A stretch of DNA of 64,000 nucleotides. Origin: Lophium mytilinum. Taxonomy: Eukaryota. The translations under genes and the position numbers were made by a program. Positions within the stretch are counted from its first letter, which is position 1; each line of letters starts with the position of its first letter. Of this stretch, positions 2,015 to 63,499 are shown piece by piece. A model generated the notes under the pieces. That model did no database searches, was not told where the DNA came from, and was given only the letters and a program-made list of their open reading frames with translations. Where the stretch lies: NCBI GenBank assembly GCA_010093605.1, contig MU004186.1, positions 1,158,616 to 1,222,615 of the forward strand, given 5' to 3'.

Positions 2015-3039
2015 TCACTGATCTTCGACGACGTACCTTAAAAAGCACTAGCGACAACTTTACACAACCCAAGTTTCAAGGATGATGGTAGGAGTCATGC
2101 TTTACTATACCTCTGGGCTTTCCTCCTTTGGAAAGCCTTCTTTTCTTAGGACCTGATTGTTCTTGCCGGCTTTTCTTCAACTTCCCGGGCCTTCTTCAGC
2201 TTCTCTCCAGACTTGCGACGACTCACAATGACTAATGCTCACGACTAACCGACCTTACGAACACTAACGCTCGAGACAACTGACTTTCACGTCGTGGTTG
2301 GTACAAAGTGGATGGTTGGGACTGTGCGATGTCTATGAAAGTCGTTCCCCGGGAGGTCATACTCTGCTTTTCCTTGACTCTGGTGCTTTCCATGCTATGC
2401 TTGGATCGTCTTGTCCTGGATAGCCTTTTCTTTTGCGATTGGAATTTGGGATGGATGCGAGCAACCTAACACGGTCTTACGAGCCGTTTGGATTTCTCGA
2501 CTTGAAGTAGGTTCGCCGTAGCCTTACAGTTGGTTGGGATTTCTGGCGACTTGACCATAGTGTTCTGGTGTCACTTTATACCTCTAAAAATGGAATGCAT
2601 GAACATTCGACATATCAGTGCCCTTGTGAAGTGATTGTGAGATTGTCTACCTTAAATGCACCATCTGGTCAGCATAGACACTGCAGCATGAACGTGGAGG
2701 ACGAGCTGCACTGCGGGTAGATGGCCACGACGCTATCAAAGCTCGGATTTAGATGGCCTGAGCCGACATGTAGTTTCTTCACCTCTGTTGCCCTCATGAG
2801 TCGTTGTTGCAAGCATCTGTGTGGCGACTTCAACACCACGGGCTCCATCCCACTTCCCCAGACATCCCACGCGGCGCATCGAATCCGCGCCCTCGATTTG
2901 AGCACCTGGCACTGGCCCTGGCCCGAGACATCCAGCGCCACAGCAGCTAACGACGCGCCCGTCGGTCGGGATCCACGTTGCTGGCGCAAGCCCTTGCCGG
3001 GCGCAGCTCAGAGACTCTGCTCTCAACCCTGCATTCATC

Positions 3040-5149
3040 ATGGCCGCCCAAACCCGCCCCAAGCCCCCCCTCCAGGGCTCCCCTCATCCCGCCGCAACGT
3101 GCCCGAATCCGCTGGACAGCCAGACGACGGCCGAGCACTCGACGCCGGCCGACGACGACACGGCAGCGCTGGACACGAAAGACAACACCACTCCTGCCGC
3201 CTTGGCCGCCGCGAACTGCGCCGCCGTCACTCGAAACGCTGAATTGGCTCCAGAGATAGAGTCGCTGCAGTCCCCAGCCTCCCTCCCAGTCATCCCCAAG
3301 TACCACATCCGCACGCCCTCGGCTGCTGGCCTCTTCCTCCAGACCGATCTCCCCTCCGAGCTCGCGACGACGCTGCCGAACCAGTCGCCCAACACGCCAA
3401 CTAGAGTGGGGAGCAGAGGAGGAGTACAGATCCGGGCCTCGGCGACTGCGCCGATTGCAATACCAGGGGCTTCGCTCAGGAGCACGCTGTCGGCGGCGAG
3501 CATGACGAGTTCTCTCTCGCCTGGATCTGCTGTCTCTTCGCCGATGCTGAACGCGTTGACGGACATCACACCCCTGCCATCACCGCTGGCAGTGGGCGAC
3601 TCTCCAGGCCCGTGGATGCGGGCGACACATGCACGTCCAGGCTCTCGGGGTTCGTCTGGTGTCACCCGCGACGACTCGTTCTTCCTCTCGACCAGCGTGA
3701 CGTCTCCGTCGAAGAAAAAGAAGGCTTATTCGGGTCTCATGCCCACAGCGGTCGAGGGCGCGAGTTTGCAGGCATACCCGCAGAGTGAGTCGGGACATGG
3801 GAGGAACAGGAGTCTCAGCGAGTTTGTGCCGGAGCCGCTCCATAATATACGGCATCGTCAGATTACAGTCTCGGCTGGATATGGTCACATAGAGGCGGAA
3901 GCCGCGCTCCATCGCGAGCAGTATCTTGCAGCGCAACGTGGACCGTGTCTTGCAGTGCCAGCGTCCCAATCTGGACCCCAAGCAACTTTCCCAACGCCGC
4001 CTGCTAGCAATCGAAGCGTGACCGAGAGCGAAGAGGAGGAGATTCCCGAAGACACCGAAGGCGTCAAGTACCTCACTGTCCGCCACAAGCCCAATACACG
4101 CAAGAAGCTATGGCGATGTGTGCGTCTGCTAGGCCAGGGAACATTCAGCAAAGTTTACCTTGCGACGAGCGAGAAGATCACCGCGAAAGACCCACTAGAC
4201 GAATCGACGTTGAACCCTAGAAAGCTTGTAGCTATCAAGGTCGTCGAGCACGGCCCTGCTGGAGGTGCTGACGAGCAACGCGTAGAGCTGAGCTTGAAAC
4301 GAGAGGTGGAGATGCTGAAATCCGTCTCTCATCCCTCTATCGTCCATCTCCGGACCTTCGATTACGATGATCAGGAGGCTCACCTTGTCCTGACGTACTG
4401 TCCTGGGGGCGACCTATTTGATCTCGCCAGCGAACATCGCAATCTCTTAACACCCGCCCTCTTGCAGAGGGTAAACGCCGAGATGGTTGGCGCGGTGCGA
4501 TATCTCCACTCTGAACTAATCGTGCATCGAGATATCAAGCTAGAAAGTCTGCATTTCCCCTGAATGCCCTATTTCGCAACACTAACACCTACTAGACGTC
4601 CTCCTCAACATTCCCGCCGCTACTCTCTCATCAATTGAATCCCCTCAATCCTACCCGCACCCTCTAATCACCCTCACCGACTTGGGTCTCTCCCGCAGAG
4701 TCCCCAACCCGCAAGAACTCCTTACCACCCGCTGCGGCAGCGAAGATTACGCTGCACCCGAGATCCTCCTCGGCCAGCCCTACGACGGTCGTGCCACTGA
4801 CGCTTGGGCGCTAGGTGTGCTCCTCTACGCTCTCATGGAAGGCCGGTTACCCTTTGATCCGCCGCCCGGGAAAGCGGGTGCGAGGAGTAGGGCAGCACAC
4901 CGCATTGCGCGATGCGACTGGGTATGGTGCCGCTTTGGAGACGCAGACGGGGAGTGGGACCCCAAAGCCGGTGCAGAGTGGGAGGGCGGGCGTGAGGTAG
5001 TGGAAGGCCTGCTCAAGAAAGTCAGTCGAGGCCGAAAAAGCCTCGACCAAGTCGCGGAGATGGAGTGGGTGCGGCACGGCATCACCGTCGAAGGGGGACT
5101 AAAGAGGCGGGAGGATGACCTGGAGGACGAGATGGAGGTGGAAAGGTAG
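3040..5149 (+). CDS. Ser/Thr protein kinase (CAMK-like, PRR1-type) with a long low-complexity N-terminus
   Basis: Motifs LGQGTFSKV, VAIK, HRDIKLE|NVLL across a 49-nt intron (4547-4595), DLG in place of DFG, CGSEDYAAPE and DAWALGVLLY. Confidence 0.93.
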
Positions 5150-5825
5150 TCGCTAGTGAGGAGCCTTCAGCATGCTCAGACGCTGCTTTGGGTTAGATCT
5201 GAAAGCACGAAAGCGAGGGTGGGCGATATGTGGAGGAGCCGTCCATCTACGGAGACTTTAAGCCGTTGGTGGGGTTTGATACGCGTTTTGGCGAGTGTGT
5301 TTGGCGTTTTGTATTATCATATCCTTTTCTTTGTTTCTTTCTTAGTAGGTAGGCCGCTCGCTGGGCGTTTTATACGTTCGTTTTTGCCCGCGAGTGCAGG
5401 GATGGGTATTGGGATTGGATTGGATTGGATGGACTAAGGTGGGGGTTGGGGATCAACATATAAAAGATACCACTGATGCGCTCTTTCAGCGCTTTTCTTT
5501 ACTCCATTTTCTAGTTCGACTCATCTCGTTTTCGTCTTTTCGCCTTCCTCTTGATTCGCTTCTTTCGTATGTTGCTTCTTCAAACAATCTACTCACTCTA
5601 CTAAGTTCACGGCGGTCTTCAAAGCCGCAGTGCCGCATTTCCCTATCCAGCGTCTTTTCTCTGTCTTTCAAAGTCGAATTGCAATGTTGAGCTGGCATAT
5701 AGATAAAAGATAGCAGTAGCATTGGATTGGATAGACAAATATTGTGGTATCTCAAACTCATTTATCGACTCATGTATTTCCTTAGTAGTCTCGTGATTCA
5801 GCATGACTAATCTACTTCCCGTAGA

Positions 5826-6115
5826 TATATAAATCTTCCGCTCCTACGTCTGGGGTTGGTTCTTGCATGGAAGCCTTCTGGGCTTGGGGGAGGATCAAAT
5901 CGCCAGACCACGGACGGAATGGTTCGCAGCTCTTGTGGGATTCTGAAAAATTCAAGTTGGACAAACTACTGATGGGTGGAGGAGAATCAACCTCTGGCCC
6001 CAACCTCTATGGTTGTGGGTGGTGCGACTTCTTCAAAAGCGGCATATCACATGGGGAAGAAGTTCGGCAGCTGTGTGCTGCAATCTTTGATGGGTGGTAG
6101 CTTGAGGAGATCCAA
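5826..6115 (+). repeat. Degenerate ATGG/G-rich repeat array A with TATA leader
   Basis: TATATAAA at 5826. Units begin with ATGG at 5867, 5919, 5972, 6009, 6051 and 6090. Confidence 0.5.
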
Positions 6116-6199
6116 TGATACTCATCATCTCTCATCCTTCGTGACCATGAACAGGACCACAGCTTCACAAAGACGAGTCTTAGGAACGGAGAGAGGTAG

Positions 6200-6456
6200 C
6201 GAGTAGCATCAACAGATGATGAACTCCACCTTCCTCATGCTTATGGTTTTAGCCTAGCTTTGCTCCCGATTCCCACCCATGAGAGATCTTCGACCTTGTG
6301 TTGTTGAATCCAGCGCTCCACCTCTAATCCTTAGAATTTTCGGAAGTGTTGTTTTGACTCCACTCCATCAGCCTGTCTCATCGCATCTTGTGAACTCCGA
6401 AGAATTCCCCAATCCGCTTGCTGTTCGACTTCCAGAGGGCGGTGGAGGTTTATATA
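6200..6456 (-). repeat. Degenerate repeat array D (minus strand) with TATA leader
   Basis: Minus-strand TATATAAA at 6456-6449. Minus-strand units start near 6368 (ATGGAGTGGAGTCAAAAAC), 6328, 6280 (ATGGGTGGGAATCGGGAGCAAAG) and 6238. Confidence 0.5.
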
Positions 6457-6605
6457 CCCAGCTGAACGAGGCGCTTACTAACAACTCTAACGGTCATGCG
6501 GCTTCTAAAAGGCCAGCACAGTACCTTCACAGAGGCTTGCCAGGTGGGACCGGCACATATCACGTTTCAGACGCGTGACCTCGCAATGTCCACGCTTCGA
6601 CGGGG

Positions 6606-6930
6606 TATAAAAGCTCCACGTTCTGCGGGTTCTTGGACTTCAGGGCATGGGAGTTGTGGTTTGAGTTTCTGCAAAAATCATCCAAAGGCGAGTCATATGG
6701 TGTGGCAGACTTGGGGCTCGTGGTGCAAAACCCCGAAGCTTGCTAAGCAATGGGGTGGGAGAAAGTGGTTCAAACACCTGGTGAAACTATACATTATGGT
6801 GTGGGCTTCAAGGGGAAATCATGCGCAGACACATTCGATGGTGGGGTGGGCTGGGTGGAGAGTACTCGAGGTGGTGATGTCGAGCAGCTAGGCGATGACA
6901 GGATGGTCGGTATGAGGTTGATATGAAAGG
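6606..6930 (+). repeat. Degenerate repeat array B with TATA leader
   Basis: TATAAAA at 6606. Units start at 6647, 6697, 6750, 6796 and 6838, e.g. ATGGTGTGGCAG..GGTGCAAAA. Confidence 0.6.
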
Positions 6931-6959
6931 ACTCCATAGCGAGCGGTGGTGTGGACGGT

Positions 6960-7209
6960 ACGCACTTTTGTTAGAGGCTGATACTCGCTATCAGCATGAC
7001 ATAAGGAGATAACCCCGGAGACGGCACCCATCTGCTGTCGTCGATGCTTGTTTTGATGCTCCACCACTCCACTTCCTCCTCCATAGAATATTCTTGATTA
7101 GGTAATTGAACGAGCACTCATGATAGTCCCCGTTTCTAGTTATTTGAACCTCGGCCAGGAAATCCAACCCCCCTGCCCTTCCAAGTCCGCAACAAACAAC
7201 TTCTATATA
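6960..7209 (-). repeat. Degenerate repeat array E (minus strand) with TATA leader
   Basis: Minus-strand GGGTATATAG at ~7212-7203. One clear unit at 7084 (ATGGAGGAGGAAGTGGAGTGGTGGAGCATCAAAAC) and weaker ones near 7121, 7031 and 6997. Confidence 0.4.
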
Positions 7210-7354
7210 CCCGATCGAAATCCACGGCTGACAAACCTCCACGTGACTCTCGATGCCCCTGTGACCCCTTACCACCACTCACAGTCCTGTCATGCGCACT
7301 CAGAACATCACGTTGAGTTCCTGTGACACGGTGACTAATCCCCTTTCTTTCGAG

Positions 7355-8430
7355 TATATAACCTCGCCCGCTCGACCTTCCCTCCGACTTCTCCAGGGAA
7401 AGAACGGGGTTTCTGGGATTTTGCAACAAGTCAACCTTGCATTCGAGTCACCCATGGAGTGGGTGGAGGGTGTTTGAAAATAAATTGGTTCTTCACAGCC
7501 ATGTTGAACTTGGAGTCTTGCTGCAAACACCTTGGCGGAAAAGATTCATGGGAAGGGAGGAGCGGAGGGATTGAAAACGACACAGGACTCAGCATATGGT
7601 GTGGGAGGTGTGGGTGGAGGGGTTTTAAAACTCTACGATGTCTGTGTACATGGCGGACTCGGGGGTCTTGCTGCAAAAACACTCGACAAAGAAACTAATG
7701 GGAAGGGAGGAGGGGAGGGATCGAAAATAACCCTCGTCTGACAAGAGTGAATGGTGTGGGAGGGGAGGGATTGAAAACGACACGAACAACAGTATAATGG
7801 TGTGGGAGGAGGAGGGTTGCAAAAAGCTGGCCCGGTCATCTTTATGGTGGGGGTGGGATGAGGTCCAACAAATTCAATGACGAAGACGATGAAGTGGGAG
7901 GGGAAGGGTCAGAAATCAACTATTGAACCCAACAATAGTGTGGCCGGAAGTTTTTTGCAAACACTTTGCATGGTGGAGCTAGGGAGTTTGGTGCAAAAAG
8001 GGACAACAAAACATACCATGGACTGCAAAGGTCATCATGGTGGGGGTGGGAGGTGTGGTGCAAAAGAGAAACATTGGGGACAGACGATGGAGTGGGAGGA
8101 CAAAAAATTGCCTAAACGGGCTGCTCATGCGTGGTCGGAAGTTGTTCGCAAAAACCTCAGCAGTGGAGTTTCATGGTGGAGTTGGGGGGAGGGTGGTCCA
8201 CAAAGAATTTGGAGAAGAACTTCATGGAGTGCGGAAGGCGCGAGCAAAAGAGATCACCTATTCTTCCATGGCGTGGGTGGAGGCGGTCCGCAACAACAAC
8301 ATTTGCTGGGACTGCCTGATGGGACTGGAGAGGGTGTTGCAAATCACAGTCTGGATGGATGCCATGGAGTGTGGAGGGAGGTAGCAAAATCATGCACGGC
8401 AAGCATTCATGCGGTGTGGCCCGAATATTC
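7355..8430 (+). repeat. Degenerate repeat array C, ~22 units of ~47 bp, with TATA leader
   Basis: TATATAA at 7355. Unit starts at 7454, 7501, 7548, 7596, 7650, 7698, 7751, 7797, 7844, 7889, 7935, 7970, 8018, 8037, 8087, 8127, 8173, 8224, 8268, 8319, 8364 and 8409. GGAGGGATTGAAAACGACAC occurs twice exactly (7564 and 7764). Confidence 0.8.
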
Positions 8431-9199
8431 CCAGAGGCATGATGCAACGTCGGGTCGGCTGGGCGGTGGCTGATTCGAACATGCGGTCATGTGCTTCGTC
8501 GATCCTCGCTGGTGTTGTTCGAGTTGATACACCGATGTTGGAGAGCCTCTCCTTTTTAGATCGGGGCTCTACGATGTTTAAAGTGCTTGGGGACGTTTGA
8601 TGGACCTACTTGCTGGTGGACTTCGGCATCGTTGCTAGGTAGAGACTATCACGCGTGAACACTTGCCCTTCCACCGCGTAGTTATTTTGGAATAGTGCTG
8701 TTAGTAGTCATGCTGAAGACAGACATCCACCAGACCATGTCTTGATGTTGTGCAGGCTTTGACTGCACCGAATCTTCAAGTCTCACAGAGCATCTTTCCC
8801 TTCTTTAATGCCTCGACAGACCCTTGCTTGACCGGAGAAGAGTTGAAATTGAAAGTAGGCTTTAAGCCCGAAGAGGAATCTGAAAGCAAACATGTGACCA
8901 AGTACGTGGGGAGAAAAGTTTCAGATAGACTTAAGAAAGGGTATTGATTGAACCATCGAAACCAGCTCAAAGCACACTTCATGAATCCCGTCCATCCCAG
9001 GCCGTAGCCACCAACTCATGCAAACCTATTGAACAACTCGTAGTTTCCCCGCGAGACAAATCATTTCCAAAACACTCATGAGATGAACCGCCCATGCGCG
9101 CCAAAACGCCCATATCCAGAAAGAATCGCAGTTCCTTAATCCCGCCTGACGCTCCAGACGCCTTCCAGGAAGAACCAGCATCCAGTATCCAGCACTCGC

Positions 9200-10460
9200 T
9201 TAATCCAAAACCTCGTAGCTGACATCCTGCTTCCTCTTCCGCACGCCCACAAACAGCCACTTGAAGCCCCACCCGACCGACTTGATGATATCCCATGGGT
9301 TGAAAGTGTTCAGCAGGGCGCGTGGCCCGCCATGCGCATACTTCGTTGGCGTAGTCAGATCGCTCGTAAGCTGCTTGTTCAGATCGTACGGTTGCCATTT
9401 GAACGCGAAGATGTGCATGACTGCAAAGATGGCCATCTCCACACATAATAGCATATTGGGTATACCGACCTTGATGTCCTGGTACCCTATCTTCTTGCTC
9501 GGAGTGATCGTTCCAGACGACACGAGGAAGGAGATGAGGAGGGATTGCCAGAAAGAGAAAAAGATGACGAGCTTGATGCAGGCGATCTTGAGACCTGGCC
9601 CGTGCGGCGCAAGCTCGTTCTTCATCTGCAGGTAAAATTGAATAAGGCAGTACATTGCTATTGTGACGGAGAGTGCTTCGAAGGCCATGACCCAGATGTG
9701 GGCAAAAGCTGGGTGGAGGGAGCTTTCGCAGTAGCGGCCGGTGGCTTGAGTGATGCCGGCGACGCAGGTGAAGAAGACGCGCACGAAGCAGTATTGGTAG
9801 ACGCCGAGCCAGACGATCTGTGTGCGCAATTAGTTTTACTCGATAGCGTCAGAGTCATGAAATCCAGTCTACGTACGTTGAACCACGTCAATCCACTCAT
9901 CGGTTTGCGAAGAAAGCCTTTATTCTCCCCGCCAGTGCACTTCTGTATCCAGGTCATGGGCCAGACCCAATTGCGCGGTTTCACGGTCCGGAAGTAGTTC
10001 TTCTGGTCGTGCAGATCATGCGCGAGGTAGTGGCACATGAGGGTGAAGAAACTGGAAATCGCAAAGGCTTCATAGCAGTCGCGCAAGATCTCGAAGTATA
10101 CGGCGTGTCTGTAGTAGAGGTAGGAGAGGAAGCTGACGGTCGCGTAGATTGGGATCATGAAAAGAATCCGTATAATACTGTGATGTCGGGTTAGCTTACG
10201 GCCACAGTTGCGCTCGTGAAGGCTGTGTATCAAGCCTTCAAGGCTGGAATGTTTTGGCGAGACGGGCGAACGTACTGCTTCTGCTCCCATGGTTTCAGGT
10301 AGTGCGTTATGTGTCTAAAGATGAGGTAGAGGGCGATGGTAGTCGCTATCAGGCCAAAGACGGCGGATATGAAGAGGCCGATGTGGTGGAAGGTGACTTT
10401 GCCGGCAATAGGATCCTCCTTCACCCACTGCTCAGTGAGGGTGGTATTACAGAATACCAT
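9200..10460 (-). CDS. TMEM184/OST-alpha family (DUF300) membrane protein
   Basis: Exons 10460-10276, 10177-9877 and 9817-9200. Motifs EQKHIIRILFMIPIYA, RDCYEAFAI, KLVIFFSFWQ and CVEMAIFA. Confidence 0.92.
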
Positions 10461-11641: not shown

Positions 11642-13574
11642 TCAAGACTCCCCCTTCGGCGTCTCTACGCCCACTCCACCCTCTTCCTTCTTCTCCTCAC
11701 CCCCGCCTTCACCGCCGCCGGCTACCTCCCTGACCTCCGACGTTTCCACGCCCTCTTCAATCGGCGTCGTCGTCCCAGGAGCTTTCGCCCCGTTTCTCCG
11801 CTTTCTCGCCTCCGTCTTCAGCGCTTCCCACCGCTCCCGATACTGCCCCAAGACACCTTTCAGCTTCTCGTTCTGCGCCGCTGTACGTTCCTGTTCCTTT
11901 CGCGCCTGTTCTGACACCTGCAGCTGTGCCTCGAGTAGCTGTGTTAATTCTGCGATCTTGGCCGCTGAGACGTCGTCTTCAGCCGTGACTGGTGCTGTAG
12001 CTGCTGCTGATGTTGACGAAGCATCGGGTATTGGTTGGGGTCCTGCGCTTAATTTGAGCCTCGAGGAGGGCGTGCGCGCGGCAGCAGCCGAAGGCGGAGG
12101 CATCATATTTGCCCCCTTCATAGCTTGCGCGAGTGCAGCTGGATCGCTGGTGGCGGCGTGGATGCCGGGTGAACCACGATTGCGCAGACTGGCTGCCAGC
12201 GCCAGCGATTGGCTCTGGGACGTTGCCTCCCACATCTGTAGTCTGCGGGACTGCTTATCTAATAGAGCACGTAATGTGGTATTTTCTAACTCTATCTCTT
12301 CCACAGTTTTCCGCCCTGCACCTCGGCCCGCGGGAATGCTGTTAGGGGGTGGTTTCGTCGCGGTATTTGCGTTTGGTTTGCGCCGCATGTGACGCGGAGC
12401 CGTAGGAGAGGGTGGATATGGTGTCTCCATCGCGTCTACGAACTCATCATGTTGGCTACCACGGTCGGAGGAGGTTTCCTCGACCAGGTCGGGAAGGTGA
12501 CCTGATGCGTGCTGGAGGATGCCGGCATAAGATACAGTGCCGCCGGAAGTGGGCACAACATAAAACGATTCGGCGGCACCACCGAAGCGTCCATTGCGGT
12601 CTGGGTCCTCTCGAAGGGCACGGAGAGCTGGTTTTGATATCAAAGTCGCATAGTCGGGCTCGTTAGTCGTGGTCGAGCGCACGGGCTTGATAGGAGCGGG
12701 GGCGGGGTTAGGAGTTGCAGGAGTCGGAGTAGAATATGGCCCCAGAGGAAGACTGGCAAAGGCCAGAGGTGCGGAAATCGCCGAGAAGACATTCTCGAAC
12801 GTGGAGTAGAACTTATGGAAGCGGTCGTCGGATGTAGCAGTCGCTGCCTCGGAAGCTTGGGAGACTTGTGACTGTTGCGCATTATCAACGGACTGTGACC
12901 GTCTCTGCGAACCCTCTGTCCTCGTTTCGTCAACTCCTTTCACCTGACGTTGTACGGCATCCTTCGCTGATAATGCTGACTCTTGCGCTTCTGCGCGGCT
13001 TTGTCTCTCAATGCGACTAGGTGCGTTAGCTATAGCATTCGCGACAGATACAGTCGCGCCAGCTGCTACCCCCCTCTTTGGTTGTGCACCCGGTATCCCT
13101 CTTGCGTTTGCTAGGTTGGTCACTATGGATGATGCAGGATCTCGGGAGGGTCTGCGATGGGTAGCCAGTCGGGACGGTGAAGAGGTAGATGCGGGAGAGG
13201 CGGATCTGGTACCGGGAGCGCCTGGGGAAGCTAGCCGAGGCCGTGTTGAAGATACTGTAGATTCTGACTGCGGATCCTGGTGGCTTGCAACAGACGCACG
13301 TGCTGCTGGTGTCTTGATAATACTCGCAAGCCGGTGATGCTGGCTTTCGAGGAGTGCAAGGATCCTCAGGGCCTACCTGCTTGTTAGACTATCCCTGGGC
13401 TTGGATGAGCATATTCTGTCATACCTCTGGGTCTCCGGTCGTTTGGGCTGCTTTTGCAAAGTGCTGCGCGGCCAGCTCATGCTCAGCACTCGCAGTGGAC
13501 ACGTCGGAATTAGCGGTCGCGGCGACGGCGTTTCTGACATGGTTTTGAGCGAGGGTGAGGGGTGCTTGTTCCAT
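11642..13574 (-). CDS. Conserved fungal protein with an N-terminal MIT-like helical domain and C-terminal coiled coil; possible Atg38/NRBF2-like
   Basis: Exon 13574-13425 (MEQAPLTLAQNHVRNA...), intron 13424-13373, then ALRILALLESQHHRLA in frame with ORF 11642-13123. Internal ESFYVVP motif and coiled-coil segments. Confidence 0.8.
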
Positions 13575-53191: not shown

Positions 53192-53749
53192 TGAGCGACA
53201 CGCGAAACGACCAGCCAGTCGACTTATGCAAACTCCTTGATCAAAGGACTAACGAAGTGGATCTTTGCTCGGAAGCATGTTAGAATGGGCACGAGCCCTC
53301 TATGATTTGAGATACCCTTCTAGATTGGATATGATGGCTTCGGAACAGCGTTCGCATGAAGACGCGCAATCTGGCGCGAACGCCGCACGAATGACTGCGG
53401 ACGCAAGATGAGGAAATCACAAGCGTGAGGGACGAGGTCATGAATTGGGAACACGGAAAGATGATTTCACGATTTATTCGGCTTGGTGGTGGAAATTAAT
53501 GGCGTGGGGGACCTTCCAAATAGCTCGGCCGAAGTAGGTTGCAAAAACATGCTGGAATAACTAAAGCCCGTTCGAAGCCTTCGTTATCAAATACTTCCAG
53601 AACATCCGGATTACTACACGCACTCCAAATATGTTCTCGGCACCGAGATACAGGGGGAAGCTAATTTGTCGTATTTAAAACAGAGTACATTCCTTAGCGT
53701 TTTTCTCTATGCACCCCCCCTAATTTTATAAGCGCGCGCCTAGAATTAT

Positions 53750-55185
53750 TAGATAGGTTATATATTAATTTTTAACTACTTTTTAATATATCTATATTAG
53801 CTATTAGTAAGGCCTTTTATATATATATTAAAGCTTATATACTAATAATTTTTAGTATTTCTAGTATAAGTTAATAACTTAATCTATAGTTAAATCCTCC
53901 TCTCTACTAGCGCGTAAACCTAACTCTAGAATTAAACTCTAATATTAGTCTTATAATACCTAGATATTATATAGCTTCTCTAGCTTAATAAGTACTCTAA
54001 ATAGATTACTAAGGTTATTTATATCTACTAAAAGATAGTATATAATATAGAAAAATATATAATTTTCTATAGTGTACCTATAAGGCCTCTATAAATTAAG
54101 ATAGAATAGCTAAGAAGGCTTACTATAGTAGATAAAAAGGCGGTGCTTTAATAGCTTCTAGAAGATAGCTAGTATAATTAAGATAAAATTTAAATATAGC
54201 TTAATCTTAAGTATAGTATTAAAGCTTTATAGCTAACTATATTATATATAATAAAGAGAAATAGATAAAGTAAGAAGTAGGCCTAGCGCTAGTTAAACTG
54301 CGTAAGTAAGAAGTTAAGGTTAAAGTACTTAGAGCTTACTAGTTACTATAAGCTAAAAGATCTTATCTTCCTTAATAAGTCTATATTTAATAAGAAGACT
54401 AGCTAGCACTATTACGCGTATATATCTATTAGAAGTTCTACGCGCTACTAGGGGCCTATAAATTATAGAAATATATAGAGTATATACACGGTAATAAGTA
54501 TAGTAGAGTAGCTACTATATATAGCTATATAAGAGGGCTACTTTAATACTAAGAAGTTTTAAAGCTAGGTTATTACTACTCTTCTACTAGCTATAGAAGG
54601 CGAGTTTAAGGGCCGCTTAAAGGTTATTATTCTAGATAATATTAGAATATATACTAAGAAAGCTCTTATATATATAATCTAGGTATAAGAATATCTAGTA
54701 TATTTTCTACTACTATACTTACTAGATTTTAACTCTATAGAGTTAATCTTTACTATACTAAAGGCGTAGATCTATAGGTATTACTATTACCTGCGCCTAG
54801 CCTATTATAACTTTAGTAACTTTCTAAGGGCTACTATTAAGTAGAGCTAGTATAATTACTTTACTTAAAAGTAGTTCTATTATATAGCTAGAGAAGTATA
54901 CTATATAAGAAAAGAGATAGATAGAATTTAGGCTAAGCTAGATGCGTATAAGAGAGGTAATACTAATACTTAAATTAAGAAGAAGTAGATAGAGAAGTAG
55001 GTTAAGGCCTAAGTATATACTATATATAGCCTTTCTATTTAATATATACTCTATATATAGCCTTACTATTTTTTATATACTCTCTAGGCTAAGACTTAAG
55101 TATTAGCGCTAGCAGATAATCTAAGACTTAAGTATTAGCGCTAGTAGATAATCTATAGCTTATATATTAGTATAGGGTAAAGTTA
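53750..55185 (+). mobile_element. RIP-degraded Tc1-like (IS630-Tc1-mariner, DD34E) DNA transposon relic; ends approximate
   Basis: De-RIP reading gives FL(D)(E)SIFN at 54368, IILDN at 54626-54640 and FL(PP)Y(SP)DFN(P)IE at 54704-54742. There are 34 codons between D (54635) and E (54740). Confidence 0.85.
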
Positions 55186-56236
55186 TATAGTAAAGCTTAA
55201 TAGCTATTATTTATTTTTCTATATATTTTTATCTCTCTCTTAACTTTTTTCTTTCTTTAAACTCTATATACTATTAATTACTACCTTTATAATACTATAG
55301 CTAATAATACTATAGCTAATAATACTAGTAATTAAAGCTCTATTAATAGCCTAATTAATAATATTCTTATAGAGCCCTCCTTCTCTCTACCTCTTACTAT
55401 GCACCCCTTTAGGCCCCTTAGAGTTTACCTAGATCCTCTAGTAATGTAAGTAGTAGTAGCTAGGCCGCTTCTTACTAAAAAGAAGATAATAGGCGTTTAA
55501 GCTAAAGATAAGGCGCTAGAAGCTTTCTCTAGTAAAAGCCTAGAGAATTCTAGCCCTTAAAGGCTTTATATAGTATATAGTAGGCCTATATACTCTTTTT
55601 CTACTCTTACTATTAGTAGAGATATCTATAATATACCTAATTAGAAGAAGAATAAAAATAAGAAAGAAAAAAAAAGAACTAATCCCTCTCTACTATATAT
55701 AATTTCTAGTATAGTAGCTTAAGAATCTAGCTAACCTATTTATATAGAAAGCGCCGCGCTTACTATCTACTCTCTTCTTTTACTATTACTATTATTCTAG
55801 GCCTGCTAACTCTCTTTTAGTATACTAATAACCTTACTACTACTCTTAGCTTTTCTACTATTACTATAGCCCTCTAAGAGCACTTTTACTATACTAAGCT
55901 TACCTATATAAAGCTTATTAATGGCTAATATAGCTAGAATTAGATAGGCCTAGCCTATAGCGTATACCTAGAGTGCGCCTAGAATATACCTACTAGGGGC
56001 TATTATTAGTATAATATTAATTTCTATACTAATAATAATCTAGGTAGTAAATATAGTATATATAGAGTTAGAAGTAAGCGCTATACTTAGGTTAATACTA
56101 TAGGGGATATAGTAGCGTTTAAGCGGGCTCTAAAGCCTAGAGCTAGTTATACTAGAAGAAAGAAGTAGAGAATTAAGCCTATTTAACTATATACTTAGAA
56201 ACTATAACTATAACTTTAAAAGTTTATTACTACTAA

Positions 56237-56255
56237 NNNNNNNNNNNNNNNNNNN
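56237..56255. other. Assembly gap (19 N)
   Basis: Run of n characters. Confidence 1.
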
Positions 56256-56299
56256 TCTATATAGCCTTTCTATTTTATATATACTCTATATAGTATCTA

Positions 56300-56580
56300 A
56301 CTTAAGGCTTAAGTATTAGTAGTAAGAATTCTATTCTAATATTTTACGGCTTAAGTATTAGTAGTAAGAATCTTATTTTAATATTTTAAGGCTTAAGTAT
56401 TAGCATAGGGTAAATTTCCTCTACGCTAATACTTAAGCCTTAAAATATTAAAATAAGATTCTTACTACTAATACTTAAGCTGTAAATTATTAAAATAAGA
56501 TCCTTACTACTAATACTTAAGCCGCAAGATATTAAGATATATTTTTATATTTTACTAGTACTAATACTTAAGCCTTAAAC
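56300..56580. repeat. Palindrome built from 42-bp tandem units
   Basis: Units start at 56307, 56349 and 56391 and are then inverted. 56349-56404 is the exact reverse complement of 56425-56480. Confidence 0.9.
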
Positions 56581-57856
56581 TATAAATACTCTTTAATTAA
56601 TAGATAGTATATATATTATAGATAGTATATATTAAATAGATAGTATATATCTATTACTATACACTCTACTCTCTATTACCTAGTAGAGTAAGATTAAATA
56701 CTACTTTATTCTTCTAGTATAGCTACTTAAACCTATATAGCTCCTTAGTAAACTTTATAGCTATTCTATCTAATATTTCTAGCTATATAGCCTTATAATA
56801 CGCCTCTAAGCTTCTATTTATTATCTAATAGAGAAAATCTATATTCTAAGCCTAATCTATTACTACCTAAGCTATCTACTACTAGTACTAGTATAAACTA
56901 GTGTTCTATATACTATTAACTTTCTAATAGAAAAACACCTCTAGTATATCTATATCTTTCTTCTTAGGGTATACTAGGCTTAAGCTCTTTAGTTAGTAAG
57001 GTTCTATAGCGGCCGGGGCCTAAGTTAAGGGCGGTAGTAGTAGTAGTAGAGAAAGGGGAGGCATAGATATAAATATAGGTGCCGGCGTATATAGAAATAC
57101 TAGAAACCTAGTAGAAATATATAGATTTAGTAGATAATAGAGTAGTAGAAAAGAAGAAGAATAGTAGCTATACTACTACTATTAAGGCTATAACTAAGGC
57201 TATAATAGAGGCTGCTATATACTTAAAAACCTCTTAGCTATAGCTATTATCTATTATATACTACTAAGCTCTATAGTCTACTTTATTATTACCTTAATAT
57301 TATCTATAGTACTTACCGCCTACTATACTCTTATTATTTTTACTAGCTAATAATATTTTAAACCTATAGGCCTATTTATTTAAAGCTCCTTTAATAATTT
57401 AATTAGAGGCACTAATATAGTAGCCTTACTGCGCGCTATAGTATTAGCCTATACCTTCTACTACTTAGTAAGTATAATAAAGTGCTTGCTGCTATTAAGA
57501 AAGTAGTAGCTATTAAAGTTACTGCACCCTTTATTAGTATACTTCTAATACTATATTAGGTCTATATTATAGTCTTTTATATTAGTAATTCTACTTATTA
57601 TAGCCTTATACTACTATAGTAGCTTTCTACTATAACTCTTAAGTATAGCTATAGCTAGTAAGAACTTAAGCGCAATTATTATAGCTATATATTTATACTA
57701 TAATATATAACTAGAGGTTATATAATAGAGGCTCTATAGAATAGGTAAATATTACTCCGCCCTTTAGGTTATTATAATATCTATTCTAGAAACCTCTTCC
57801 TCTCTTATATTTATCTTTTATTAATATTAATACTATCTAATTTAATAATTCTAACA

Positions 57857-60800
57857 TTCTAACCTTAAGCCCTAATATAAGATAAATACCCTTCTAGCTT
57901 CCGGGAGTAACGGAAGCAACCCCTAGAAAATTTTCCGTAATAGAGTGCGCTCTTATAATAAGCTATAGTATGCGCCGCTATCTATATAGTAACTATTAGT
58001 AGTATTATAGACCCCTAATAAAGACTATACTTAATAATATAGTACCCTTCTATTAGTAGCGCCGCGGGCCTCTAATAAAGTAATCTAACTATTATATATA
58101 AAGTTAGATAATAGATCTTATAACTATAGTAGTGCTTATAAGCCTCTATAATAAAGGGGTAGTAGTAGTACTCTAGAAAGTTCTTACTAATTCTTATTAA
58201 TTACTTTAATAGCTCTATAACTTCTTCTTTTATCTATTTTACTATCGCCGTATAGAGACTAACGCCCGGAAAGCTTAGTATTAATAATAGCGCGCGCGCG
58301 CGCCTAGCGTTACTAATTAATTATAATTACTTAATTGCTATTACTATATAGAGACTAACGCCCGGAAAGCTTAGTATTAATAATAGCTAGCCTACGCGTA
58401 TACTTAGTATTATAGAATAAATATCTATAGACTATTTATTTTCTATATACTACCCGTTTTATAAATAGACTACCTAATATTATTATTTACTATAACCCCT
58501 AATAACGCCGCAACTAACTATAATAGGCGCTAGTTTCTTAAGCCTTCTATATAACTAGTGCGCGTAGTAAATAACCTAAATTTATTAATAGCTTATATAT
58601 AAATTTAATACCTTGCCCCTTTAAGTTTTCTTTCTTCTATACTAATCTTTTCTATCTTTTTATATAGCTAACCCTAACCGCTATACTTTTAACCGCGCTA
58701 AAGCCCTATAGTTTAGTAACTTTATCTCTAGTAGACGCTCTACTACTAGACGCCTATTTAGTAACGCTAATAGTATTTCTATTAACCCCCGCTATATTAG
58801 TATTATATTACATTAAGAAGGCGCCCTAAACTTATAGCACCTTCTTATAGAAGATAATAATAATAATATAATATAGATTAACTATAGTTCTTAACCTTCT
58901 CTTATTTAGCTAGTAAATCTACCCTTCTAAGCTACTTAGTTATAGTTCTAAATACTAGCTACTATCTTATAGCTAGCTCTATCTATTAAACTAATTCCTT
59001 CTATAATACCCGCTAAGCTCTAATATTATTAAAATAAGTTTAGTACCTTAGATAAACCCCTACTAGCTACTCTAGCTCCTCTAGTAGAGATTATAGTAGA
59101 GAATACTATACTTCTACTCTTCTACATTAGTAGCTATATACTAGGTAACTTTAATTTACCTATTCTTAATAATATAACTGCCGGCCTTAATAATATAACC
59201 GCCGCCTATAATAAGAACTTCTTCTCTAACTTTAATTTAGCTAATAAATATAACCGTTAGGAGGAAGAATATTAGTTTAGTAATAACGCGGACGATAAGG
59301 TTAATAAGCTTAAGACAGCCTATTAAGGCGTTACTATTAATACTTCTAACGCTATAGTATACTATAATACTATTTCTAAGCTATATTAATTCCGCGACCC
59401 TAAATATCTAAGAATACTATCTATTTATAGTATTCTCTTACCTAATATATCTCTATTATAATACTAATCTACCCGCGTTAAATCTATTACCGGACTTAAT
59501 ACTTCTAACCTAGCCTAGTAACTAGCGGGTATAGAATAGAGTAATAGATACTACACTATAATTTACGCGGAGGACTGTTAGTAGTTATATCTTATAATTG
59601 CGTAGCGCGCTAATAGCTCTATCTTTAAAATGCGCTATAGAGACGGCGTCTACTAATAATATAAACTATAAGGTCTATAGAACCTTATTAAAGATATTTA
59701 ACTTATACTAGAATAGTAGTAGAACTATATTATAATAGCTTACTAAGATAGTAATAACTATAAGTATAGAATAAATATTACTATCTAAGAATAGAATACT
59801 ACTAATACTAATATTAAGAAGCTAAATAAAAAATATTTACTTACTAATAGTAAACTTACTAAGCTCTAGACCTAAGTCTATACCCTTAATTATAAACTTA
59901 AGGCTAAATAAATAGAGTTAGCCTATATATAACGCCTATATAATAAAAAGCACGCTAACTTCTAAGCCTAAACCTATTAGTTTAATAACCTCTAAGCTAG
60001 ATACTAATAGGCCTTAATAAGAATTATCTAGCTTAAAGCTTAAGCCTAGTAGAATATATTAGTAGAATAATCTAATAATCTATATATAGACCTGCATAAC
60101 TACTCTAATTATAATTCTACTAATAACGCTTCTTCTCTACTACTAGTAGAACTATATACTCTTAACCTAGATAACTTTTAATATAACCGCGTTCTAGGTT
60201 AATACTTTACTATAGCTAGAGGAGGAGAGGGTAACCTAGATCTAAGTTAACTAGGTAGTTTTACTTAACTATAGGTCTATAGGCCTGTCTATCCTTAATT
60301 TAGATAAGGCTCTTAACCTAAGTATACTTACTTATAGAATTTTAAATTAGAAGCTATAGTATATATAGCCTAGAAGAACTACCTAATCTACTTAATCTAA
60401 GTAGACTAGTAGACTTACCCTACTACTATAACTTAAATTTAACTTACTATTAGTTATTATAAGGGACGCGCATATAAAGTTATTAAGAACTATAGTCTTT
60501 TTATATCTACTAATCTATATTATTTACTTAAGAAACTTATATAGGACCTAGACGCTATATTTTAAGAAAGTAATACTATTTATTATAATTGCCTTCTTAA
60601 CTAACTTAATAGTAAGGGTATAAAATAGAGATATAATAAAAAGACGTCTAACTTTCTATAATATCTTAATGTTATTCTTAACGGGCTTAAGTATAGTAAA
60701 ATTAATAATAGCCTTATAACTTAATACTATTACCTTAAAGAAATACTATATATAGATCTTACTAAATATATTAACTTTAGTTTATTAACCTAGTACTAGG

Positions 60801-62998
60801 TAAAAGATAATATTCTATATAAGGACTGTTATTATATTTAATATAAAAAATAGGCTAATAAAGAGCTTCTTACTATATAGATCTTAGCACGCCGCTTAAA
60901 TAATATATACGCGTAGAATAGCTATTATAACTTTAACTGCGCCTAGTATAAAGTATCTACTATTAAGACTAATAACCGTATTATAGTTAAGAAGACTACT
61001 ACTATTCCGCTGCTAAGCGTCCTACTACACGTCCGCCTGCGTCTTAGTAAGAAAGGACGCTACTTTAGCTACTTTAAGAAGAACTACTACGCCGGTAACC
61101 CTAAATATACTATAGCTAGAAAGACTATATTAGAGGCTTAGCGTAATAAGCGCCTTACTACTGCTAGTATTAATAGTATAAAACTTAATGCTTTTAATTA
61201 TAGTAGTAATTAGAAGTATTAATATAAGTATAAATATAATAATAACTAAGGCTAAGATAATAATAATAATAAGGCTATCTATTCTAACGGCTTAGGAAAT
61301 GCTTAATCTTTAATAAAAGTTATTATTAGAGATAGTTAGAAGATACGCTAGCTTAAGCTTTTATATATATCTAGAAGCTTAAGCTACCCCCTTTAAAACC
61401 CCCTAATATTAAACTTTTAGCTTGCGCTATTAGACTTGCCCTATTATTAAGTAAATAGATAGACTTTAACTATAGAATTAAGACTTTAACTAGAATAGTT
61501 AAATCTATAGTCCTTATAGACTCTAGATATAGCGGATTTATATTTATTTCTATAAGCTTTATAAAACACTATAACCTTAATATCTATAAGGCTACTCTAT
61601 ATAATATTAAACTACTAAATAGTTCTACCTTAGTTATTAATAAAGTAGCTAAAGTTACTATATAGATTAAAGAATACTATAATAAATTCTAGGCCCTTAT
61701 CTATAATTTTAAAGGCTATAATATTATTCTTAGTATAGGCTAGCTTATAATATATAATACCTATATAAAATTTAGTATCTAGATAATACAACTAGACTTA
61801 GATTACTACTATTTTTAGTACCTAGTTAATTATAAACTAGTCTATATCTAGTCTAAAGACTCTATTACCCGCACTAGTAAATGCCTATTCTAGTAGAAGC
61901 TTAACGCCTAACTTACTACTTTTAAAGCGCTTAATATTAATATAGTATCTAGTAATAAATATTTATATAACGCCTAGTAATTACTAGAGAAAGATACTAT
62001 CTATATATAGCCTAAATACTTTAAGTTAGCGCTTACTAATAAGAAAGCTAAAGCATAGGCGCGCGCTAAAGGGCGCCCGTATAAATTAGGTAATATTATC
62101 TTAGGTCTAGCTAATTTTACTAATAACCTGGCGGCTATTAGTCTCTATATAATATTAAAAGACAACTAATATAAATTCTTTAAGAAGATAGAGCGTAAAC
62201 TAATAACCTGTAATAAACTTAAAGTATTAGTACCTATAGAATACTATAGCTTCCTTAATATATAGAACCTAAAGAAAGCTAATAAGCTACTACTATGCTA
62301 TAAAGCTAAAGATAGTATAGATATTAATTACTATATTAATATTAAACCTAGTAGTAAAGCTCTAGCTTAAAAGGTATATAGCCTTTTATATAATAAGATA
62401 TTAGTTATTAAAATCTTTATTAATAAAATATATAGGAAAGGCTATATTAGAAAAAGTAATAGCTAATATACTATACCTATTATTATTATCTATAAACTAG
62501 AAGAAGGCCTCTATATTTATATAGACTATTAAGGTCTTAATACTATTATAATTAAAGCTTATAATGTTCCGCCGGCTATAAAAGACACCCTTGCGCTATT
62601 AAAATACGCTAGATATTATATAAAGTTTAATATTATAGCCGCTTTTAACGCTATTAGAATATAAGAAGAAGATAAGAAATATACAGCTTTTCTTATAAGA
62701 TATAGCCTATTTAAATTTACTATTCTACCTTTTAGCTTATATAATATACTAGCGATATTTTAAGCCTTTATTAATAATATACTCTTAGAATATTTAGATA
62801 ACTTCTATACTACCTATCTTAATAATATTCTTATTTTTAGCAAAACGCTTAAGAAATATATTAGTTATGTTAAGAAAGTCCTCTAGCGGCTTTATAAAGT
62901 AGGCCTATTTCTTAATATTACTAAATATAAATTCTATAAATAGGAAGTTAAGTACTTAGGCGTTATTATTAGCGTTAATAGTCTTAAAATAGATCTAG
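57857..62998 (+). mobile_element. RIP-degraded Ty3/Gypsy LTR retrotransposon (gag, protease, RT), interrupted after RT; 5' limit approximate
   Basis: De-RIP reading gives a Zn knuckle at 61058-61108, protease LIDS(G) at ~61513, RT GL..(CV)DY(R)GLN at 62507, TAF.(T)RY(G)LF(E)..LPF(G)L at ~62683, YL(DD)ILIFS at 62815, then VKYLG..I and LK(M)D(P). Confidence 0.9.
58251..58386 (+). repeat. 40-bp exact direct repeat flanking a (CG)n run in the retroelement leader
   Basis: TATAGAGACTAACGCCCGGAAAGCTTAGTATTAATAATAG at 58251 and 58347; CG dinucleotide run at 58291-58302. Confidence 0.85.
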
Positions 62999-63499
62999 TG
63001 TAAGGAATACAGCTATTAAGTATATGCACATCTCTAGCGTGCACGTACCGGCTAGTATATGCGCACCCTATATAGTTCTATTATAAAGAGCCTTATACTT
63101 AATATACTTTATAATATAAACTTATCTTTAATAACTTAATGCGCCTATACTCTATATCTATATAGCACGCTTACGTCCCTTATAATTAGTAGCTAATTAG
63201 GCTAATTTAACTTCTCTAGCAATAAACGCCCCTATTTTTCTCTTTTTAATACTCTTATCCGCAATAACTAGATACTTATCTTAGTTGCTTTTCTAACGTT
63301 AACGTACTCTATGCTAACGCCTAACCTCTCTCTCTCTCTCTCTCTCCCCTATCTCTCTCTCTCTTTCTCTCTCTTTCTAGTCTTTTTCTTTCTCTCCTAT
63401 ATAGAAGTTATAGATATAAAGATATTTTTATACTTATAACGCTATTATTAGTAATACTATAAGTTACTTCTATATCTAATAGTAGTAGTATTACTTACA
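62999..63499. mobile_element. LTR of a second retroelement nested in the Gypsy pol gene
   Basis: The pol frame stops abruptly at TGTAAGGAATA (62999), and a near-perfect inverted terminus TATTACTTACA ends at 63499. Contains a CT-rich microsatellite at ~63326-63395. Confidence 0.7.

What the first reader, a model, noticed from the sequence alone, without database searches (positions are those of the whole stretch)
5800..8430. Five TATA-led repeat arrays in alternating orientation: candidate non-coding array system
Seen in sequence: the gene-free interval between two convergent genes is organised as A(+) D(-) B(+) E(-) C(+). Each array consists of related ATGG/G-rich/A-tract units and is preceded by a TATA box. 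The leaders resemble each other. A (TATA..GCTCCTACGTCTGGGGTTGGTTCTT) matches B (TATA..GCTCCACGTTCTGCGGGTTCTT), and both have the first ATGG 41 bp after the TATA. D (GTATATAAACCTCCACCGC..GGGGAATTCTTCGGAGTT..ACAAG..ATGGAGTGG) matches C (GTATATAACCTCGCCCGC..GGGGTTTCTGGGATTT..ACAAG..ATGGAGTGG). Inference: a duplicated cassette of leader plus repeat-spacer array, possibly a family of Pol II non-coding transcripts or small-RNA precursors. I know of no described fungal element with this layout. An ancient decayed satellite or transposon is the null explanation.
Basis: partly seen in the sequence, partly recalled or inferred. Interest (0 to 1): 0.8.

Follow-up and report, generated by a model that had tools for sequence, protein, structure and literature searches.

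The report
Five promoter-led G-rich repeat arms
A gene-free gap between two fungal genes holds five old, related copies of a promoter-like head followed by short G-rich repeats, pointing in alternating directions; it does not code for protein, matches nothing known, and whether it does anything is unproven.

Summary
The structure is real. Window 5815-8425 lies between the stop codons of a kinase gene (+) and a TMEM184/Solute_trans_a gene (-). It holds five paralogous arms, A(+) D(-) B(+) E(-) C(+), about 750-780 bp apart per (+)(-) pair.

- **Arms:** each starts with a TATA head. Arm-to-arm similarity beats shuffles (z 4.8-8.2, 0-1 of 150), and unrelated intergenic controls do not.
- **Array C:** about 20 units of 36-67 nt with a ~150-bp three-unit higher-order period. 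B has 4-5 units. A, D and E are weak.
- **Units:** the ~28-nt cores (ATGGnGnGGGnGG...GCAAAA) are conserved, but the spacers between them are at chance level.
- **Heads:** A, D and C carry a bZIP-like site 11-17 nt upstream of the TATA motif. These are the only three such composites in 53 kb.
- **Negative results:** no coding signal, no protein homologue (0 of 1.84 billion representatives), no Pfam or Rfam match, no hairpin, no RIP, no second copy in the window, and nothing similar in metagenome contigs.
- **Untested:** transcription and conservation in relatives.

Best reading (0.4): conditionally used promoters driving non-coding, multivalent G-rich repeat RNAs. Main rival (0.33): a decaying local amplification with no function. 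The organism is a Dothideomycete; a neighbouring ORF is 100% identical to a Lophium mytilinum protein.

The parts
5804..5833 (+). Head A: bZIP-like site TGACTAA (5804-5810) and TATATAAA (5826-5833)
5815..6110 (+). Arm A: head, leader and about 5-6 weak ATGG-led units. First ATGG at 5867, 41 nt after the TATA.
   Evidence: ATGG 6 against 2.4 in shuffles (5/300). A-D z 5.4. No unit-HMM hit.
6111..6224 (.). A/D tail-to-tail junction. Mirror-image last units of A and D: inverted repeat 6083-6097 / 6273-6287, 87% over 15 nt.
   Evidence: (I4)
6225..6481 (-). Arm D: TATA at 6456-6450, bZIP-like site 6475-6481 upstream of it, leader and 2-3 weak units.
6482..6594 (.). Centre between divergent heads D and B. 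The two TATA motifs are about 150 bp apart.
   Evidence: Similarity to the E|C centre is weak: z 1.1 in the same orientation, z 3.3 reverse-complemented.
6595..6900 (+). Arm B: TATAAAAG at 6606, first ATGG at 6647, 4-5 units (6697, 6750, 6796, 6838).
   Evidence: 2 HMM hits; collinear with C over 6596-6860 / 7349-7619
6901..6984 (.). B/E tail-to-tail junction
6985..7222 (-). Arm E: TATATAG at 7209-7203, leader and 2-3 weak units.
   Evidence: (D-E z 8.2)
7223..7331 (.). Centre between divergent heads E and C. The two TATA motifs are about 146 bp apart.
7332..7453 (+). Head and leader of arm C: TGACTAA (7332-7338), TATATAAC (7355-7362), and a leader that aligns to B's first unit.
   Evidence: (D18)
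7454..8425 (+). Array C: about 20 units of 36-67 nt. Each has a ~28-nt G-rich core (ATGGnGnGGGnGG...GCAAAA) and a 8-37-nt unconserved spacer. Three-unit higher-order period of about 150 bp. GC skew +0.36 to +0.44.

Best explanation
The interval holds a local family of five paralogous non-coding transcription units. Each has a TATA-containing head, which in three arms is preceded by an AP-1/Yap-type bZIP-like site. That head points into an array of 3 to about 20 copies of a conserved ~28-nt G-rich core, with the copies separated by unconstrained spacers.

**Shown**
- The architecture and the paralogy of the arms.
- The heads are kept better than the arm bodies.
- The cores are kept while the spacers have decayed to chance.
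- There is no coding signal, no hairpin and no match to a known family.

**Inferred**
- RNA polymerase II starts a few tens of nucleotides downstream of each TATA, under conditions that were not sampled (possibly stress, given the bZIP-like site).
- This would give G-rich, AUG-laden, untranslatable RNAs.
- The repeated core would act as a multivalent binding site for one sequence-specific protein, on the RNA or on the displaced G-rich DNA strand, so the locus would work as a decoy or scaffold.
- With GC skew of +0.35 to +0.44 on the non-template strand, such transcription would also favour R-loops.
- Arm C, if it runs on, would be antisense to the TMEM184 gene.

The family arose by inverted and then tandem duplication of one cassette that already had at least 4 units. 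C was later extended by amplification of a three-unit block.
For: 1. Five collinear paralogous arms in alternating orientation with a regular period. TATA motifs at 5826, 6606 and 7355 on + and at 6456 and 7209 on -. Unrelated intergenic controls are negative.
2. The heads are kept better than the bodies. In the 5-way alignment, 8 of the 19 invariant columns fall among the first 17 positions of arm A (TTC...TATA.A), while mean column identity is 46%. A and C share TGACTAATC...TATATAA, although the A and C arms as wholes are not significantly alike (z 0.7; D18).
3. The composite of a bZIP-like site, 8-35 nt and TATAWA occurs 3 times in the first 53 kb, and all three are at heads A, D and C. Shuffles give 0.20 +/- 0.44 (0/200). 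This pattern was chosen after seeing the data.
4. TATA-like motifs are concentrated here: 7 of 20 distinct sites in 53 kb lie in 2 kb.
5. Constraint differs inside the units. Cores score 0.761 against 0.640 in shuffles (0/200), and inner cores without anchors score 0.708 against 0.563 (0/200). Spacers score 0.493 against 0.476 (17/200). Neutral decay of a tandem repeat should erode both alike.
6. It is non-coding:
   - unit lengths are mostly not multiples of 3;
   - stops are spread evenly over the three frames, 7/7/6;
   - GC at codon positions 1/2/3 is flat, unlike the kinase ORFs and a further upstream ORF (503-2014), where GC3 is 0.65-0.68;
   - there is no Pfam match and no homologue of the longest frame.
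7. There is no RIP signature, although a heavily RIP-like block lies in the same window.
Against: - No transcript start was shown, and no run on record as RNA holds the stretch.
- The few thin contigs of run X3 (kind only guessed) that lie in the interval, 5769-6062 and 7226-7608, begin upstream of TATA A and TATA C. They do not begin downstream, as this model would predict.
- Conservation in other species could not be examined.
- The arrays in A, D and E are barely above chance as arrays.
- The bZIP-plus-TATA composite was defined post hoc. It may be shared simply because the heads are paralogues.
- Core conservation could come from core-limited gene conversion rather than selection.
- The 203-codon open frame in C is longer than in most shuffles (5/300).
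- No binding protein is known.
Confidence: 0.4

Rival explanations
1. Neutral relic. A G-rich minisatellite with a ~150-bp higher-order period was caught up in local inverted and tandem segmental duplications and is now decaying. The TATA-like heads and the bZIP-like site are just inherited parts of the duplicated segment and drive nothing.
For: - Copies are very diverged: 58.7% between higher-order copies and 46% mean column identity between arms.
- TRF sees no array.
- A, D and E hold only 2-6 doubtful units.
- There is only one locus in 64 kb.
- There is no structure, no coding signal and no known family.
- The interval lies between two 3' ends, where no promoter is needed.
Against: - At this divergence, neutral decay should have erased an 8-nt TATA motif in most of five copies, and should have eroded cores and spacers equally. 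Instead TATA is kept in 5 of 5 arms, the bZIP-like composite in 3 of 5, and the cores are kept while the spacers are at chance.
- TpA is depleted in array C (TpA/ApT 0.32), so the TATA heads are not a by-product of RIP.
Confidence: 0.33
2. DNA-level element. The cores are binding sites for a sequence-specific DNA-binding protein, for example a multi-zinc-finger factor. The arrays would then act as a boundary, insulator or chromatin-organising element between two convergent genes, without needing a stable RNA.
For: - The core is conserved and about 28 nt long, at roughly regular ~48-nt spacing with free spacers.
- The ~150-bp higher-order period is close to one nucleosome.
- The position is between convergent genes.
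Against: - It does not explain why each arm keeps a TATA head that points into the array.
- No factor or motif match was tested.
- Only 1 canonical G-quadruplex motif lies in the region, so a G4-array version fails.
Confidence: 0.12
3. Decayed or unconventional coding sequence. These would be remnants of a small gene family for W/G-rich repeat peptides (RiPP-, pheromone- or Kex2-repeat-like), or many tiny ORFs starting at the ATGG anchors.
For: - Every unit starts with ATG(G).
- The longest open frame in C is 203 codons, against 114 +/- 30 in shuffles (5/300).
- ORFs of 78 aa (A) and 64 aa (B) begin at unit ATGs.
Against: - The frame changes from unit to unit.
- The first ATG after TATA B, C, D and E gives 2-7 codons.
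- GC1/2/3 is flat.
- 0 of 21 ORFs hit Pfam at E<=0.1.
- There are no homologues among 5.8 billion indexed proteins or 1.84 billion scanned representatives.
- No repeated CaaX-ending ORF was found.
- Position -3 of the ATGs is mostly T or C.
Confidence: 0.06
4. Mobile-element debris (foldback-like or MITE-like pieces, or solo LTRs with internal repeats), or a hairpin or convergent-transcript source of small RNAs.
For: - Arms in inverted orientation, head-to-head and tail-to-tail.
- A RIP-degraded repeat block lies 45 kb away in the same window.
Against: - No transposase or RT remnant.
- No other copy in the window at E<=1.
- No RIP signature.
- The inverted arm pairs fold no better than shuffles.
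- Genome-wide copy number could not be tested, because no genome is held.
Confidence: 0.06

Closest known systems
Degenerate minisatellite / satellite with higher-order repeat structure
   Same: Head-to-tail units of about 48 nt, a three-unit ~150-bp higher-order period, strand-asymmetric G-richness, and a single locus.
   Different: Part of each unit (the core) is kept while the rest is at chance. The array is preceded by a promoter-like head. The whole cassette exists in five copies of alternating orientation.
Decoy or scaffold lncRNAs of fungi (S. pombe meiRNA luring Mmi1; T. reesei HAX1 proposed as a decoy for Xyr1)
   Same: A non-coding Pol II unit whose proposed action is to bind and hold a regulator. 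The source is passages of PMC12566771 read. That meiRNA carries many copies of a short binding motif is recalled, not from a call.
   Different: No transcript, partner or phenotype is known here. The motif is a ~28-nt G-rich core, not a hexamer. There are five paralogous units, not one gene. No sequence similarity was tested or is expected.
Natural arrays of protein-binding sites with free spacers (gypsy insulator Su(Hw) sites; EBV oriP family of repeats). Recalled, no call.
   Same: About 12-20 tandem degenerate copies of a conserved core of 18-30 bp, separated by unconstrained spacers.
   Different: Those belong to an insect retroelement and a herpesvirus, bind known proteins and are not promoter-led. 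No fungal counterpart is known to me. Searches listed none.
Immunoglobulin switch regions. Recalled, no call.
   Same: A promoter followed by kilobase-scale tandem G-rich units of about 49 bp on the non-template strand, prone to R-loops.
   Different: That is a vertebrate recombination target that depends on AID. Only the layout and the GC skew are alike. R-loops were not tested.
CRISPR array
   Same: A leader followed by repeats of about 28 nt that alternate with dissimilar spacers of about 20 nt.
   Different: The host is a eukaryote. The repeats score only about 0.76 against their best partner rather than being near-identical. Spacer length varies from 8 to 37 nt. No cas genes are present, and the spacers have no matches beyond chance. 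The resemblance is superficial.

Membership tests
Tandem repeat (minisatellite with higher-order period) | Head-to-tail copies of a 10-100-nt unit, more alike than chance | tested here: met
   Array C has 20 units. The unit pattern occurs 12 times against 4.0 +/- 2.1 (0/300). A self-match at a 150-bp offset has E 9e-20. TRF itself reports nothing.
CRISPR array | Near-identical direct repeats, spacers of regular length, cas genes, prokaryotic host | tested here: not met
   Core best-partner score is 0.76. Spacers are 8-37 nt. The flanking genes are a fungal kinase and TMEM184. A neighbouring ORF is identical to a Dothideomycete protein.
Protein-coding gene or repeat-peptide precursor | One maintained reading frame, codon-position bias, homologues or domains | tested here: not met
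   Unit lengths are not multiples of 3. GC1/2/3 is flat. 0 of 21 ORFs match Pfam at E<=0.1. There are 0 homologues. One frame of 203 codons is longer than 295 of 300 shuffles.
Hairpin small-RNA precursor (milRNA or inverted-repeat siRNA source) | A fold more stable than shuffled sequence | tested here: not met
   A+D gives z -0.48 (29/100 shuffles fold as well). B+E gives z -0.31 (38/100).
Known structured RNA families (snoRNA, telomerase RNA, snRNA and others) | A match to an Rfam covariance model | tested here: not met
   0 matches at E<=1 in 4500-9500. 0 at gathering score in the whole window. 0 tRNAs.
Transposable element, MITE or foldback element | Dispersed copies, terminal repeats with target-site duplication, or transposase/RT remnants | tested here: inconclusive
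   No other copy in 64 kb and no TE domain. The genome-wide copy number is not testable, because no genome is held.
lncRNA gene (Pol II) | A defined transcript with start and end, not translated | not testable with these tools
   No run on record as RNA holds the stretch. Contigs cannot show starts, ends or strand. Promoter-like heads are present.
AP-1/Yap-type bZIP-regulated promoter | A TKACTMA-type site upstream of a core promoter, bound and used by the factor | tested here: inconclusive
   The motif lies 11-17 nt upstream of the TATA motif in 3 of 5 heads. These are the only 3 such composites in 53 kb (0/200 shuffles). The consensus and its assignment to Yap/AP-1 factors are recalled. Binding was not tested.
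G-quadruplex array | Many G3+N1-7 four-tract motifs | tested here: not met
   1 canonical motif in the region (7700-7719), out of 8 in the window.

The most novel reading that the evidence does not exclude
A new kind of fungal non-coding locus: a small family of inducible promoters, each driving an RNA made of many copies of one conserved ~28-nt G-rich core separated by free spacers. It would work as a multivalent decoy or scaffold for a sequence-specific binding protein, or through R-loops on a strongly G-skewed template, perhaps also acting antisense on the neighbouring TMEM184 gene. No described family has this layout.
Probability: 0.15. Interest if true: 0.7.

Novelty: new variant of a known kind. 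Interest (0 to 1): 0.4.

Why it matters
If the heads fire and the cores bind a factor, this would be a compact natural example of a multivalent repeat RNA, or a binding-site array, in a filamentous fungus. Fungal lncRNA mechanisms are known from only a handful of cases, and this one would be easy to test by deletion and pull-down.

If it is a relic, it is still a clean example of how an inverted-then-tandem duplication and a higher-order minisatellite decay in a genome that has RIP-degraded repeats only 45 kb away. In that case it has no wider importance.

Tried and rejected
- **Own genome:** none is held, so copy number in the genome is unknown.
- **Earlier findings of this scan:** nothing by place, relatives, sequence or words.
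- **Sequencing runs:** no RNA holder listed.
  - I laid X3-X6 (all contigs; the kind of X3 is only guessed as RNA) on 4600-9400.
  - X3 has identical contigs over 4600-5736 and 8872-9400, and thin ones over 5769-6062, 7226-7388 and 7393-7608.
  - X4-X6 (another organism) lie only on the flanks, up to 5648 and from 8727.
  - The uncovered parts say nothing about expression or conservation.
- **Relatives' DNA:** a metagenome scan with the TMEM184 C-terminal ORF gave 277 pattern matches, none a relative.
- **Unit-pair pattern in metagenomes:** My unit HMM finds at most 1 weak hit in any of them (best E 0.11), so no similar array.
- **Known families:** Rfam, tRNA and Pfam searches found nothing.
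- **Protein homologues of the 203-residue frame:** none. The other frames were not searched.
- **Hairpin or dsRNA idea:** rejected. Array C alone (1046 nt) was folded without shuffles, so there is no z-score.
- **G-quadruplex array:** rejected.
- **Pheromone-like CaaX ORFs:** 8 chance C-x-x-x-stop sites with no repeated pattern.
- **RIP as the source of the TATA motifs or of the divergence:** rejected. The indices are gene-like.
- **Guide-like spacers:** the longest exact matches outside the region average 9.8 nt, against 9.66 for shuffled spacers. This covers the window only.
- **A sixth arm:** no similarity above z 2.7 (3/100) in 8430-8900 or 5150-5800.
- **Telomerase-RNA idea:** one TAACCCT at 7726. 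That is what chance would give, and Rfam found no match.
- **Literature:** searches (listings only) show no paper describing such an element or this species' non-coding loci.
- **Not tested:** several transcription-factor look-alikes (CreA/Mig1 SYGGRG, STRE, Rpn4 PACE, Ste12, HMG-box) were considered by eye. I dropped them as untestable here.
Full report
**Setting**

The window is fungal nuclear DNA. The ORFs at 2902-4563 and 4586-5149 (+) carry a protein kinase domain. The ORF at 9658-10314 (-) carries Solute_trans_a, the TMEM184 type, and its last ORF ends at 8979. So the interval 5150-8978 lies between two convergent genes.

A neighbouring ORF (11642-13372) is 100% identical to an NCBI protein of Lophium mytilinum and 91% identical to one of Mytilinidion resinicola, both Dothideomycetes. 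No whole genome is held for the window.

Mostly yes.

- A TATA motif heads each block: 5826(+), 6456(-), 6606(+), 7209(-), 7355(+).
- With two more at 5374(-) and 5459(+), 7 of the 20 distinct TATA[AT]A[AGT] sites in the non-AT-rich 53 kb fall within 2 kb.
- Local alignment of the arms against 150 dinucleotide shuffles gives D-E z 8.2, B-C z 5.7 and D-B z 4.8 (all 0/150), and A-D z 5.4 (1/150).
- The alignments run collinearly from the head over 140-270 nt.
- In 20 comparisons of the arms with two unrelated intergenic stretches, on both strands, z ranged from -0.7 to 1.3.
- No further arm lies in 5150-5800 or 8430-8900.
- Same-strand TATA motifs are 749-780 bp apart. The simplest history is therefore an inverted duplication of one cassette, followed by tandem duplication of the pair.
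- B's first unit aligns to C's 'leader', and four or five later units align in order. The ancestral cassette therefore already carried an array.

**The arrays**

- C (7454-8425) has about 20 units of 36-67 nt.
- A unit pattern occurs 12 times there, against 4.0 +/- 2.1 in shuffles (0/300).
- A blastn self-match at an offset of about 150 bp covers 829 nt at 58.7% identity (E 9e-20). This shows a three-unit higher-order period.
- A profile built from the 20 C units re-finds 19 of them, by construction. It adds 2 hits in B, none in A, D or E, and one weak hit elsewhere in 64 kb.
- A has an excess of ATGG (6 against 2.4; 5/300). B, D and E are not significant alone.
- TRF reports nothing.
- The phrase 'five arrays' therefore overstates A, D and E. 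They are better described as short, decayed arms.
- The unit consensus beyond the chosen ATG anchor is ATGGnGnGGGnGG, then more G, then (T/G)GCAAAA.

**Core and spacer behave differently**

I split the 20 C units into a core (ATG to the A-run) and a spacer.

| Part | Mean best-partner score | Shuffles | Shuffles reaching observed |
|---|---|---|---|
| Cores, anchors kept in shuffles | 0.761 | 0.640 +/- 0.008 | 0/200 |
| Inner cores, anchors removed | 0.708 | 0.563 +/- 0.011 | 0/200 |
| Spacers | 0.493 | 0.476 +/- 0.012 | 17/200 |

If the array were simply decaying, spacers should keep the same identity as cores, and at about 0.7 that would have been obvious. Either the cores are under constraint or they are homogenised by a process limited to them.

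The spacers have no matches elsewhere in the window beyond chance.

**The heads look like promoters**

- In the five-way alignment, 8 of the 19 invariant columns lie among the first 17 positions of arm A (TTC...TATA.A), against 46% mean column identity overall.
- A and C share TGACTAATC, then 13-14 nt, then TATATAA (family D18). D has TTACTAA 17 nt upstream of its TATA.
- The composite of a TKACTMA site in either orientation, 8-35 nt and TATAWA occurs three times in the first 53 kb, and all three are at heads A, D and C.
- Shuffles give 0.20 +/- 0.44, and none of 200 reaches three.
- I chose this pattern after seeing the data. Its reading as an AP-1/Yap-type bZIP site is recalled knowledge, not a test.

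**What it is not**

- **Not coding.**
  - The frame shifts from unit to unit.
  - Stops are spread evenly over the three frames.
  - GC by codon position is flat, unlike the kinase ORFs and a further upstream ORF at 503-2014.
  - 0 of 21 ORFs match Pfam at E<=0.1.
  - The longest frame (203 codons, longer than 295 of 300 shuffles) has no relative among the indexed proteins or among 1.84 billion representatives.
  - There is no repeated CaaX-type ORF.
- **Not a known RNA.** No Rfam or tRNA match.
- **Not a hairpin.** z is -0.48 and -0.31.
- **Not a G-quadruplex array.** There is one canonical motif.
- **Not RIP-affected.** TpA/ApT is 0.64 and 0.32 and the substrate index is 1.24 and 1.40. By contrast, 54-63 kb of the same window has 1.82 and 0.11 at 28% GC.
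- **No TE protein remnant and no second copy in the window**.

**What could not be learned**

- No listed run is on record as RNA.
- The contigs I laid cannot show starts or strands, and the uncovered parts carry no information.
- The few thin X3 contigs inside the interval start upstream of TATA A and TATA C. If X3 is RNA, that does not fit initiation at those TATA boxes.
- No DNA of a relative could be reached. The flanking-gene scan and a unit-pattern scan of metagenome contigs gave only chance matches.
- Literature listings show no described element of this layout.
- Passages of a 2025 review (PMC12566771) give meiRNA and HAX1 as the fungal decoy or scaffold lncRNAs to compare with.

**Verdict**

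This is a real, unusual local structure. Two independent hints point to constraint: the heads are kept, and the cores are kept while the spacers are not.

I favour five conditionally used promoters driving non-coding RNAs built of a repeated G-rich binding core (0.4). A functionless decaying amplification comes next (0.33), then a DNA-level binding array (0.12), decayed coding sequence (0.06), and mobile-element or small-RNA sources (0.06). The remainder is left open.

Interest is moderate. It is one locus in a little-studied fungus, and neither expression nor conservation has been shown. Synteny in Mytilinidion and a stranded transcript-start map would settle it.

Noticed in passing
window 53500-64000: AT-rich block (GC 24-30%) with strong RIP-type indices: TpA/ApT 1.82 and (CpA+TpG)/(ApC+GpT) 0.11. 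It holds 250 of the window's 278 TATA-like hits and 22 of the 35 TKACTMA hits (all TTACTAA). It is probably RIP-degraded repeat or transposon DNA.
   Followed up: partly
window 5368-5748: Downstream of the kinase stop there is a (GGATT)3.8 microsatellite at 5412-5430. There is also a diverged duplicate of ATTGGATTGGAT... at 5419-5446 and 5721-5748. Two further TATA-like motifs face apart at 5374(-) and 5459(+), followed by a CT-rich stretch. This region shows no similarity to the five arms.
   Followed up: partly
window 5094-5177: A 12-nt GGAGGACGACAT repeat (2.4 copies) sits at the 3' end of the kinase ORF. Contigs of X3 and X4 break or branch here, with loose ends at 5107-5164.
   Followed up: no
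window 11642-13372 (-): A 576-residue ORF without any Pfam match is conserved across Dothideomycetes: 249 proteins at E<=1e-10 among 8000 scored. It is 100% identical to a Lophium mytilinum protein and 91% to a Mytilinidion resinicola protein. Nearly all are named hypothetical; single sources call relatives 'MIT domain-containing' or 'Subunit 21 of Mediator complex'.
   Followed up: no
window 8979-9848 (-): The C-terminal 289-residue ORF of the TMEM184-type gene has no Pfam match and low GC3 (0.40, against 0.65-0.68 in the kinase).
   Followed up: no
window 6390-6397 (- strand, leader of arm D): GCGATGAG, identical to the yeast PAC ribosome-biogenesis motif as I recall it. It occurs once and was seen by eye.
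   Followed up: no
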